Origin: Escherichia coli O127:H6 str. E2348/69 | GTDB lineage: Bacteria; Pseudomonadota; Gammaproteobacteria; Enterobacterales; Enterobacteriaceae | Strand: one strand, 5' to 3' | NCBI RefSeq assembly: GCF_000026545.1 | Contig: NC_011601.1 | Length of the DNA stretch: 64,000 bases | In this document: in pieces, positions 59,101 to 62,100 of the stretch | Layout of the letters: every line of letters begins with the position of its first letter | Position numbering within the stretch: position 1 is the stretch's first letter | Made by a program: the position numbers

Positions 59101-62100
59101 AACCTTCACCGCAGTGAACTGGACGCCACTGCATGACAACATGTACGAAGCTGCCGGTGGCGATAAGAAATTTTATCGTGAAGGAGTATTTGTTAACGGC
59201 GCGGCACAGGGTTACCTGATCGATAAGAAAACTGCCGACCAGTATAAAATTACCAACATCGCGCAACTTAAAGATCCGAAGATCGCCAAACTGTTCGATA
59301 CCAACGGCGACGGTAAAGCGGATTTAACCGGCTGTAACCCAGGCTGGGGCTGCGAAGGTGCGATCAACCACCAGCTTGCCGCGTATGGACTGACCAATAC
59401 CGTGACGCATAATCAGGGGAACTACGCAGCGATGATGGCTGACACCATCAGTCGTTACAAAGAGGGTAAGCCGGTGTTTTACTACACCTGGACGCCGTAC
59501 TGGGTGAGTAACGAACTGAAACCGGGGAAAGATGTGGTCTGGTTGCAGGTGCCGTTCTCCGCACTGCCGGGCGATAAAAATGCCGATACCAAACTGCCGA
59601 ATGGCGCGAATTACGGCTTCCCGGTCAGTACCATGCATATCGTTGCCAACAAAGCCTGGGCCGAGAAAAACCCGGCAGCAGCGAAACTGTTTGCCATTAT
59701 GCAGTTACCAGTGGCAGATATTAACGCCCAGAACGCCATTATGCATGACGGCAAAGCCTCAGAAGGCGATATTCAGAGCCACGTTGATGGCTGGATCAAA
59801 GCCCACCAGCAGCAGTTCGATGGCTGGGTGAATGAGGCGCTGGCAGCGCAGAAGTAAATATTGATAACCGCGCAGATAATGCTCATGTGAGTAAAACAAT
59901 TGCAGCGATGGTTTTAATCCGGCTGAAAATCGATGAGACGTTTTCTGAAGGCCGGGGCGACGCGCAGGGATGCGCGGCGAGGGCGCGTCTTACAGGGATG
60001 TTACCTCGCGCCCGTACCCGATAGCCGTAAGAAATAAGTCGAATGTACCGCGTAGCGGCGATTTTGTGCCAAAAGCCTGGGTCGCCAGGGTGGTGGCGAC
60101 TGAGCCACCCTGGCACGTTCACCAGCAAAATAGTGACAAGCTATAGTCTGGAAGTGAACGTAACATTTGCCTTAGTGGCATATTTCACCTTCAAATACCC
60201 TCTCCCCATTACCCGCACATTTCAACAATCTATCTTTCATCCCATATTCATCAACATCCGCTATTATTGATTTCCAGCTTAATCATCACCTGATGAACAA
60301 AAATAATGACTAAACCTAATCATGAGATTAGCCCGGCGCTGATCGTGCTGATGTCTATCGCCACCGGTCTGGCGGTAGCCAGTAACTATTACGCCCAGCC
60401 ATTGCTCGACACCATCGCGCGTAACTTTTCCCTTTCCGCCAGTTCGGCAGGCTTTATTGTTACCGCCGCGCAGTTGGGCTATGCCGCAGGTCTGCTGTTT
60501 CTTGTTCCCCTCGGTGATATGTTTGAACGCCGCCGCCTGATTGTCTCGATGACCTTACTGGCAGCAGGCGGCATGTTAATCACTGCCAGCAGTCAGTCGC
60601 TGGCGATGATGCTCCTCGGTACGGCATTAACCGGTTTATTCTCAGTCGTGGCACAAATTCTGGTTCCGCTGGCAGTGACGCTGGCTTCACCGGACAAACG
60701 CGGCAAAGTGGTCGGCACCATTATGAGCGGGCTGCTGTTGGGGATCTTGCTGGCACGGACCGTTGCCGGATTGCTGGCGAGTCTCGGTGGCTGGCGAACT
60801 GTCTTTTGGGTCGCTTCGGTATTAATGGCACTGATGGCGCTGGCGTTATGGCGTGGTCTGCCACAAATGAAATCAGAAACCCACCTCAACTACCCACAGT
60901 TGCTAGGTTCTGTTTTCAGCATGTTTATCAGCGATAAAATCCTGCGCACCCGCGCGTTGCTGGGCTGCCTGACCTTTGCCAACTTCAGCATTCTCTGGAC
61001 CTCAATGGCCTTTTTGCTTGCCGCTCCACCTTTTAACTACAGCGATGGTGTAATTGGTCTGTTTGGGCTTGCGGGAGCTGCCGGAGCGTTGGGCGCTCGT
61101 CCGGCGGGCGGTTTTGCCGATAAGGGCAAATCGCACCACACCACAACTTTCGGTCTGCTGCTGCTGTTACTTTCATGGCTGGCAATCTGGTTTGGTCACA
61201 CTTCCGTACTGGCGCTGATTATCGGCATCCTGGTGCTGGACCTCACCGTGCAGGGCGTGCATATCACTAACCAGACGGTAATTTATCGAATACACCCTGA
61301 TGCGCGTAATCGCCTGACCGCAGGTTACATGACCAGCTACTTTATTGGCGGTGCCGCTGGTTCGCTAATTTCAGCCTCAGCCTGGCAACATGGCAGTTGG
61401 GCTGGCGTGTGTCTGGCTGGCGCGACGATTGCCCTGGTTAACTTACTGGTCTGGTGGCGAGGTTTTCATCGTCAGGAAGCCGCAAATTAAGCAATCAGCA
61501 ACCGTTTTCGTGGCTTTACACTTATAAGGGTGTTAAGAAGCCCATCAGTCTGATAAGGTTAAGATATTCATTCAGTCTATTTATAATATTAACAATCGTT
61601 AAGCGTACACTCTATGGAAAGCCCTACTCCACAGCCTGCTCCTGGTTCGGCGACCTTCATGGAAGGATGCAAAGACAGTTTACCGATTGTTATTAGTTAT
61701 ATTCCGGTGGCCTTTGCGTTCGGTCTGAATGCGACCCGTCTGGGATTCTCTCCTCTCGAAAGCGTTTTTTTCTCCTGCATCATTTATGCAGGCGCGAGCC
61801 AGTTCGTCATTACCGCGATGCTGGCAGCCGGGAGTAGTTTGTGGGTTGCTGCACTGACCGTCATGGCAATGGATGTTCGCCATGTTTTGTATGGCCCGTC
61901 ACTGCGTAGCCGTATTATTCAGCGTCTGCAAAAATCGAAAACCGCCCTGTGGGCGTTTGGCCTGACGGATGAGGTTTTTGCCGCCGCAACCGCAAAACTG
62001 GTACGCAATAATCGCCGCTGGAGCGAAAACTGGATGATCGGCATTGCCTTCAGTTCATGGTCATCGTGGGTATTTGGTACGGTAATAGGGGCATTCTCCG

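What the first reader, a model, noticed from the sequence alone, without database searches (positions are those of the whole stretch)
60306..61490. ygaY appears intact here
The MFS transporter gene between proX and ygaZ reads as one uninterrupted 394-aa ORF. My recollection is that ygaY is annotated as a disrupted pseudogene in K-12 MG1655, so this strain may retain the functional ancestral form.
Basis: partly seen in the sequence, partly recalled or inferred. Interest (0 to 1): 0.2.

Follow-up and report, generated by a model that had tools for sequence, protein, structure and literature searches.

The report
Intact ygaY transporter gene, ordinary allele
This strain (E. coli E2348/69) carries the normal, uninterrupted version of the membrane-transporter gene ygaY, which is broken by a 7-base deletion only in the K-12 laboratory lineage, so this is the ordinary state of the species and not a discovery.

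Summary
Window 60306..61490 (+) is one 394-codon ORF between proX and ygaZ. The window is 100% identical to E. coli E2348/69, where NCBI annotates this ORF as an intact MFS transporter. The only disabling difference is a 7-bp deletion in K-12, at window 60560-60566 (codons 85-87), which shifts the frame into a stop. That deletion junction occurs in 353 of 5426 complete E. coli genomes, and every sampled one is a K-12 laboratory strain. About 5050 genomes have the undeleted form. Full-length 394-aa orthologues exist in E. fergusonii, E. marmotae, E. albertii, Shigella and Citrobacter. dN/dS against K-12 is 0.047. So the intact allele is ancestral, under purifying selection, and the species norm; K-12 is the exception. 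The substrate of YgaY is unknown, and no curated equivalog model matches. This is already in public annotation, so interest is low. One thing noticed in passing: the proX-ygaY spacer here holds a copy of an unannotated, multi-copy enterobacterial repeat. It has strongly covarying hairpins, two of which show ANGGAY loops that resemble CsrA-binding sites.

The parts
60306..61490 (+). ygaY coding sequence, intact, 394 aa, predicted MFS transporter (identical to WP_000165669.1 of E. coli E2348/69)
   Evidence: ORF listing and sequence. The 100% identical E2348/69 record annotates a CDS at the same position. Pfam MFS_1 scores 140 bits against a cutoff of 33.4.
60560..60566 (+). The 7 bases (GGCAGCA, within ctGGCAGCAGGCggc) that are deleted in the K-12 lineage. 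Their loss shifts the frame after codon 85 into a TAA three codons later. The GGC microhomology on each side is consistent with slippage, and it means the deleted 7-mer can be placed in several equivalent registers.
   Evidence: Pairwise alignment of the window with NC_000913.3 ygaY, and three-frame translation of the K-12 copy.
58865..59857 (+). proX, the upstream neighbour (last gene of proVWX)
   Evidence: Annotation of the identical E2348/69 record, mapped to window coordinates.
59858..60305 (.). proX-ygaY spacer. It is 448 bp here and 191 bp in K-12. Only the last ~92 bp before the ATG (from about 60214) are shared with K-12 and most strains.
   Evidence: Global alignment of the two spacers. 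Most genomes align only from query base 114/115, which is window 60213/60214.
59918..60127 (+). Copy of an unannotated dispersed structured repeat (context, not part of ygaY). Two of its hairpins have CAGGGAUG loops.
61614..62351 (+). ygaZ, the downstream neighbour (L-valine exporter subunit). A promoter-like match lies at 61559-61587 just upstream of it.
   Evidence: Annotation. The consensus scan found TTAAGA-17-TATAAT, 10 of 12 matches; this is a pattern match only, not evidence of function.

Best explanation
Window 60306-61490 is the ordinary, ancestral, intact allele of ygaY in E. coli E2348/69. It encodes a 394-residue inner-membrane secondary transporter of the major facilitator superfamily. 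By analogy with its nearest characterised relatives (12-helix efflux-type MFS proteins such as SotB, Bcr/CflA and Cmx), it most likely moves a small solute across the inner membrane by proton-coupled alternating access, and probably exports it. The substrate is unknown. The K-12 'pseudogene' is a derived state caused by one 7-bp deletion at the start of the third hydrophobic segment (window 60560-60566), and that deletion is confined to the K-12 laboratory lineage. Shown: the ORF is intact, the lesion is identified, the lesion's distribution is mapped, orthologues are conserved, and selection is purifying. Inferred: the gene is expressed, and the direction of transport and the substrate.
For: The ORF and its coordinates are confirmed. 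The window is 100% identical to E2348/69, whose record annotates an intact MFS transporter CDS between proX and ygaZ. MG1655 ygaY is an annotated pseudogene, and PGAP marks the BW25113 copy 'frameshifted'. The alignment shows one 7-bp deletion in K-12 plus 40 substitutions, 35 synonymous and 5 non-synonymous, giving dN/dS 0.047. A 40-mer across the K-12 junction hits 353 of 5426 genomes, and an evenly spaced sample of 60 are all K-12 lab strains. An 81-mer matches about 5050 other genomes only with a gap. Orthologues of 394 aa at 92-97% identity occur in E. fergusonii, E. marmotae, E. albertii, Shigella and Citrobacter, and two E. coli protein clusters hold 3984 and 1043 member sequences. Pfam MFS_1 matches at E = 9e-41, and MFS_4 covers profile positions 13-361 of 364, spanning the K-12 frameshift site. 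There are full-length but sub-cutoff matches to the SotB-type sugar efflux, Cmx/CmrA and Bcr/CflA models and to the SotB structure 6kki. The literature treats K-12 ygaY as a cryptic pseudogene and uses it as a neutral control or integration site.
Against: Nothing contradicts the intact-ancestral reading. The functional part has caveats. No Shine-Dalgarno-like sequence is visible in the 15 bases before the ATG. No NCBIfam equivalog reaches its cutoff, so no substrate can be assigned. A simple hydropathy scan resolves 9 non-overlapping strong segments (10 peaks, two overlapping) rather than 12. I did not check every one of the ~5050 undeleted genomes for other lesions, and at least one genome (H40) lacks most of the gene.
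Confidence: 0.95

Rival explanations
1. The ORF is intact but the gene is effectively silent (cryptic) in this strain too. It could be H-NS/StpA-silenced or poorly translated, so an intact frame would not mean a working transporter.
For: In K-12 the ygaY region takes part in an H-NS-mediated bridge with the proVWX downstream regulatory element, and its transcript levels are low and modulated by StpA. No obvious ribosome-binding site precedes the ATG. The only promoter-like match in the spacer is weak, 9 of 12 at 60118-60147.
Against: dN/dS of 0.047 and conservation of a 394-aa frame from Escherichia to Citrobacter are not expected for a gene that is never expressed. Silencing under laboratory conditions does not exclude conditional expression.
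Confidence: 0.15
2. The K-12 form is ancestral, and the window's 7 extra bases are an insertion that happened to create a long ORF.
For: None beyond the fact that an indel between two sequences has no direction in itself.
Against: The longer form is present in about 93% of complete E. coli genomes and in other species and genera as a 394-aa protein. The shorter form is restricted to K-12 lab strains. MFS profiles align continuously across the site only in the longer form.
Confidence: 0.005
3. The K-12 frameshift is a sequencing or assembly error in the reference, and ygaY is intact in K-12 too.
For: None.
Against: 353 independently sequenced K-12-lineage assemblies share the identical junction, and PGAP independently marks it as frameshifted.
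Confidence: 0.005

Closest known systems
ygaY (b2681) of E. coli K-12 MG1655, annotated pseudogene
   Same: Same locus between proX and ygaZ. 96.6% nucleotide identity over the gene (40 substitutions in 1178 aligned bases). Same start codon, and identical sequence for ~92 bp upstream.
   Different: K-12 lacks 7 bp (window 60560-60566), which truncates the product at about 88 residues. The window's copy is uninterrupted. The distal part of the proX-ygaY spacer also differs: REP-like sequence in K-12, a different repeat here.
WP_000165669.1, 'MFS transporter' of E. coli E2348/69 (NZ_CP059840.2)
   Same: The DNA is identical (100% over 1601 bp) and the CDS coordinates match, so this is the same gene in the same strain or a near-identical one.
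   Different: Nothing.
12-helix efflux-type MFS transporters: SotB sugar efflux transporter (PDB 6kki; NCBIfam NF002921), Cmx/CmrA, Bcr/CflA
   Same: Full-length alignments (query residues 9-390 against NF002921, 12-383 against SotB) and membership of the same superfamily. This suggests proton-coupled alternating-access transport, probably efflux.
   Different: Scores are far below the curated cut-offs (65 against 401 bits for NF002921; 49 against 201 for Bcr/CflA), so YgaY is not an equivalog of any of them and no substrate can be transferred.

Membership tests
Major facilitator superfamily (Pfam MFS_1, PF07690) | Profile match above the curated gathering score | tested here: met
   140.3 bits against a cutoff of 33.4, E = 9.2e-41. 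MFS_4 (33 against 26.3 bits) covers profile positions 13-361 of 364.
Major facilitator superfamily (Pfam MFS_1, PF07690) | Twelve transmembrane helices in two six-helix halves | tested here: inconclusive
   A Kyte-Doolittle scan (19-residue window, threshold 1.5) resolves 10 peaks, two of them overlapping, so 9 non-overlapping segments. Full-length alignment to 12-helix SotB and to MFS_4 implies 12 helices. No dedicated topology predictor or structure model was run.
Major facilitator superfamily (Pfam MFS_1, PF07690) | Motif A (G-x3-D-[RK]-x-G-R-[RK]) in the loop between helices 2 and 3 | tested here: inconclusive
   Residues 70-78, GDMFERRRL, sit at the expected place and keep the acidic and basic character, but they deviate from the consensus. 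This was read by eye from the translation; the consensus is from established knowledge of MFS proteins.
ygaY orthologue (E. coli locus b2681) | Position between proX and ygaZ-ygaH-emrR (mprA) | tested here: met
   Annotations of the E2348/69 and MG1655 records show the same gene order.
ygaY orthologue (E. coli locus b2681) | High nucleotide identity to K-12 ygaY along the whole gene | tested here: met
   40 substitutions and one 7-bp indel over 1185 bp.
K-12-type ygaY pseudogene allele | 7-bp deletion at codons 85-87 giving a frameshift | tested here: not met
   The window has the 7 bases (60560-60566) and an open frame. The junction 40-mer is found only in 353 K-12-lineage genomes.
SotB-type sugar efflux transporter (NCBIfam NF002921, equivalog) | Score at or above the curated cutoff (401 bits) | tested here: not met
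   65.1 bits.
TwoAYGGAY RNA (Rfam RF01731), considered only for the repeat upstream of ygaY | Covariance-model score at or above the gathering score (43 bits) | tested here: not met
   28.2 bits for the window copy, and 30.6-32.2 bits or no hit for other copies. Only the core of two hairpins with A-N-GGA-Y loops resembles the family.

The most novel reading that the evidence does not exclude
The novelty, if any, lies just upstream of ygaY rather than in it. In this lineage (about 547 of 5426 genomes) the proX-ygaY spacer holds a copy of an unannotated, multi-copy enterobacterial repeat of ~200 nt. Its hairpins covary strongly, and two of its loops are almost always A-N-GGA-Y, the kind of site that CsrA binds. 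If the element is transcribed with proX or as the ygaY leader and binds CsrA, it would tie the osmoprotectant operon or ygaY to the Csr regulon. The repeat family would then be an uncatalogued class of CsrA-binding RNA modules.
Probability: 0.1. Interest if true: 0.5.

Novelty: already known. Interest (0 to 1): 0.06.

Why it matters
It matters little. The result is a reminder that K-12 is atypical at this locus: its ygaY is dead, while virtually all other E. coli strains and their relatives keep an intact, selectively constrained transporter of unknown substrate. Work that uses ygaY as a 'neutral' site or pseudogene control is therefore valid only in K-12. Studying YgaY function requires a non-K-12 strain or a repaired K-12 allele. 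None of this is new, because public annotation already shows both states.

Tried and rejected
1. I looked for a curated functional assignment. No NCBIfam equivalog reaches its cutoff, and PDB sequence hits are weak, with SotB at E = 7e-5. No substrate can be named.

2. I searched the literature for ygaY. Biological papers mention it only as a K-12 pseudogene, a neutral control or integration site, or the anchor of an H-NS bridge with proVWX. I found no functional study of the intact allele.

3. I rejected the idea that the indel is an insertion in this strain or an error in K-12.

4. For the upstream repeat, I tested membership of Rfam TwoAYGGAY. It scores below the gathering threshold in every copy tried, and no other Rfam family matches.

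5. From memory I suspected the upstream repeat might be the 'RSA' repeat of the older E. coli literature. Two literature searches and one paper on stem-loop repeat families did not let me confirm or refute this, so the name is not asserted.

6. I considered a relationship to the CsrA-binding sRNA McaS. No Rfam isrA/McaS hit was found and the sequences do not obviously align, so I dropped it.

7. The terminator scan found no intrinsic terminator between proX and ygaY. The repeat's 3' hairpin has no U-tract.

Full report
**Observation.** The ORF listing reports 60306..61490 on the + strand, 394 aa, ATG to TAA, and the sequence was read directly. A megablast of 60100-61700 against 5426 complete E. 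coli genomes gives a 100% identical, full-length hit to E. coli E2348/69 (NZ_CP059840.2), so the window comes from that strain or a near-identical one. In that record, PGAP annotates an intact CDS for an 'MFS transporter' (WP_000165669.1) at the same coordinates. The CDS is flanked by proV-proW-proX upstream and ygaZ-ygaH-emrR-emrA downstream.

**The K-12 comparison.** NC_000913.3 annotates ygaY (b2681) as a pseudogene of 1178 bp between proX and ygaZ. PGAP labels the BW25113 copy 'MFS transporter, frameshifted'.
- A global alignment of the two genes shows 40 substitutions and a single 7-bp gap.
- K-12 lacks window bases 60560-60566 (ctGGCAGCAGGCggc becomes ctGGCggc).
- After codon 85 the K-12 frame therefore reads A-C-stop, and the remaining ~300 codons continue in another frame.
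- GGC triplets flank the deleted bases, which is consistent with a slippage deletion. This last point is an inference.
It is not met.

**Direction of the change, and how common each state is.**
- An 81-base K-12 query across the junction matches 354 records at 99% identity or more. It matches 5051 records only at below 95%, which is the value a 7-bp gap produces.
- A 40-base junction query can seed only if the deletion is present. It hits 353 of 5426 genomes.
- An evenly spaced sample of 60 of those hits consists entirely of recognisable K-12 laboratory strains, including MG1655, BW25113, C600, J53, JM109, TG1, MC4100, S17-1 and EPI300.
- A protein search finds 394-aa orthologues in E. coli (single 90%-identity clusters of 3984 and 1043 sequences), Shigella, E. 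fergusonii (96-97% identity), E. marmotae, E. albertii (94-95%) and Citrobacter (92%).
- The intact form is therefore ancestral and the species norm, and the deletion is private to K-12.
- Of the 40 substitutions between the window and K-12, 35 are synonymous and 5 are not, giving dS 0.124, dN 0.0058 and dN/dS 0.047. That indicates strong purifying selection over the history separating the two alleles.

**What the protein is.**
- Pfam MFS_1 matches at E = 9e-41. The MFS_4 profile aligns almost end to end (positions 13-361 of 364), straight across the site of the K-12 frameshift.
- NCBIfam gives only sub-cutoff matches. The full-length ones are to the SotB-type sugar efflux model NF002921 (65 against 401 bits), Cmx/CmrA (52 against 400) and Bcr/CflA (49 against 201).
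- The best full-length solved relative is the sugar efflux transporter SotB (6kki, E = 7e-5).
- A hydropathy scan gives 10 peaks, two of them overlapping, so 9 non-overlapping strong segments. The K-12 stop falls inside the third segment, just after the motif-A-like GDMFERRRL loop, so the K-12 N-terminal product would have only two helices.
- My reading is a proton-coupled, 12-helix MFS secondary transporter, more likely an exporter. The substrate is unknown. Superfamily membership is shown; the direction of transport and the substrate are inferred.

**Expression caveats.** No Shine-Dalgarno-like sequence is evident before the ATG. The consensus scan finds only a weak promoter-like site in the spacer (60118-60147, 9 of 12 matches) and a better one in front of ygaZ (61559-61587, 10 of 12 matches). 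In K-12 the ygaY region is bound in an H-NS-mediated bridge with the proVWX downstream regulatory element and is weakly transcribed. Conditional or low expression is therefore plausible. The selective constraint argues against complete silence.

**Literature.** Biological papers mentioning ygaY treat it as a K-12 pseudogene. It appears as a neutral control mutant, as an integration site, or as part of proVWX chromatin architecture, with 'crypticity' and nine in-frame stops noted. I found no functional study of the intact allele.

**Verdict on the finding.** Both the K-12 pseudogene and the intact gene in E2348/69 are already in public annotation, and the intact state is what about 93% of complete E. 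coli genomes show.

**Noticed in passing: a structured repeat upstream of ygaY.**
- The proX-ygaY spacer is 448 bp here and 191 bp in K-12. Only the last ~92 bp are shared.
- Window ~59918-60127 is a copy of a dispersed repeat. This site is occupied in about 547 genomes.
- At blastn sensitivity, 5425 of 5426 E. coli genomes carry copies, with a median of 3 and up to 10 per genome. Examples are the yegH-asmA spacer in ST131 and the lysO-aqpZ spacer in K-12.
- Copies also occur in Klebsiella and Citrobacter. None is annotated.
- A pattern scan of one genome per species returned 116 stretches, all in Enterobacteriaceae (Escherichia, Citrobacter, Leclercia, Enterobacter, Silvania, Klebsiella, Kosakonia, Pseudocitrobacter), often with 8-11 copies per genome.
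- An alignment of 99 distinct copies gives a consensus structure of 29 pairs, 16 of them with compensatory double changes.
- On that structure, 96.7% of cells pair, against 26-43% when the partners are slid. The covariation score is 0.401 against 0.077 or less, and 456 cells show double changes against 71 or fewer.
- Two hairpin loops read A-N-GGA-Y/A in about 95 of the 99 copies. A U-G pair present in 46 copies favours the + strand.
- The + strand of the window copy also folds better: -92.5 kcal/mol (z = -3.2) against -80.5 (z = -2.25).
- Rfam gives only sub-threshold hits to TwoAYGGAY, 28-32 bits against a gathering score of 43. That family has been proposed as a CsrA-binding RNA (PMC4333381).
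- I could not establish whether the element already has a name in the older repeat literature.
- It is not part of the finding, but it is the more interesting object in this neighbourhood.

Noticed in passing
window 59918-60127 (+), in the proX-ygaY spacer; paralogues at L003:3001-3210, L004:2501-2656, L006-L008 and L009-L123: An unannotated repeat of ~200 nt, dispersed across Enterobacteriaceae: a median of 3 copies per E. coli genome and up to ~11 in Klebsiella and Silvania. Its secondary structure covaries strongly: 29 pairs, 16 with compensatory changes, 96.7% of cells paired against 26-43% when partners are slid. Two hairpin loops are almost always A-N-GGA-Y, which resembles a CsrA-binding site. 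It gives only a sub-threshold Rfam TwoAYGGAY hit (28 bits, gathering score 43). Some copies carry an alternative 3' module with a third AUGGAU hairpin; others are truncated or have a duplicated hairpin, which suggests mobility or recombination. I could not tell whether it is already named in the older repeat literature.
   Followed up: partly
window 59858-60213 against L001:5126-5225: The distal part of the proX-ygaY spacer is a replacement polymorphism. This lineage (~547 genomes) has the structured repeat plus ~90 bp of unique sequence, whereas K-12 and most strains have a shorter REP-like sequence. The region just downstream of proX is where an H-NS/StpA-dependent bridge with the proVWX regulatory element was mapped in K-12, so that architecture may differ between lineages.
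   Followed up: partly
window 60118-60147 (+): A weak sigma-70-like match (TTCACC-18-TATAGT, 9 of 12) whose -35 hexamer lies in the conserved 3' end of the repeat (..GCACGTTCAC..). The element might therefore supply an outward-facing -35 box about 160 nt upstream of ygaY. This is a pattern match only.
   Followed up: no
window 61559-61587 (+): The best promoter-like match in the region (TTAAGA-17-TATAAT, 10 of 12) sits in the 123-bp ygaY-ygaZ spacer. This suggests ygaZH can be transcribed independently of ygaY, which would explain why the K-12 frameshift has no polar consequence.
   Followed up: no
H40, NZ_CM129877.1 (E. coli PCP06021, seawater): Only 16% of the ygaY query region is present, and the annotation jumps from the MFS transporter to ygaH. 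This looks like an independent deletion that removes most of ygaY and ygaZ in this isolate.
   Followed up: no
P0001 (ENA contig, 596 aa): The top-scoring database hit is a 596-aa protein that scores 1086 bits at 72% identity to YgaY. This is longer and higher-scoring than the true orthologues, and is probably an internally duplicated or misassembled ygaY on a short metagenomic contig.
   Followed up: no
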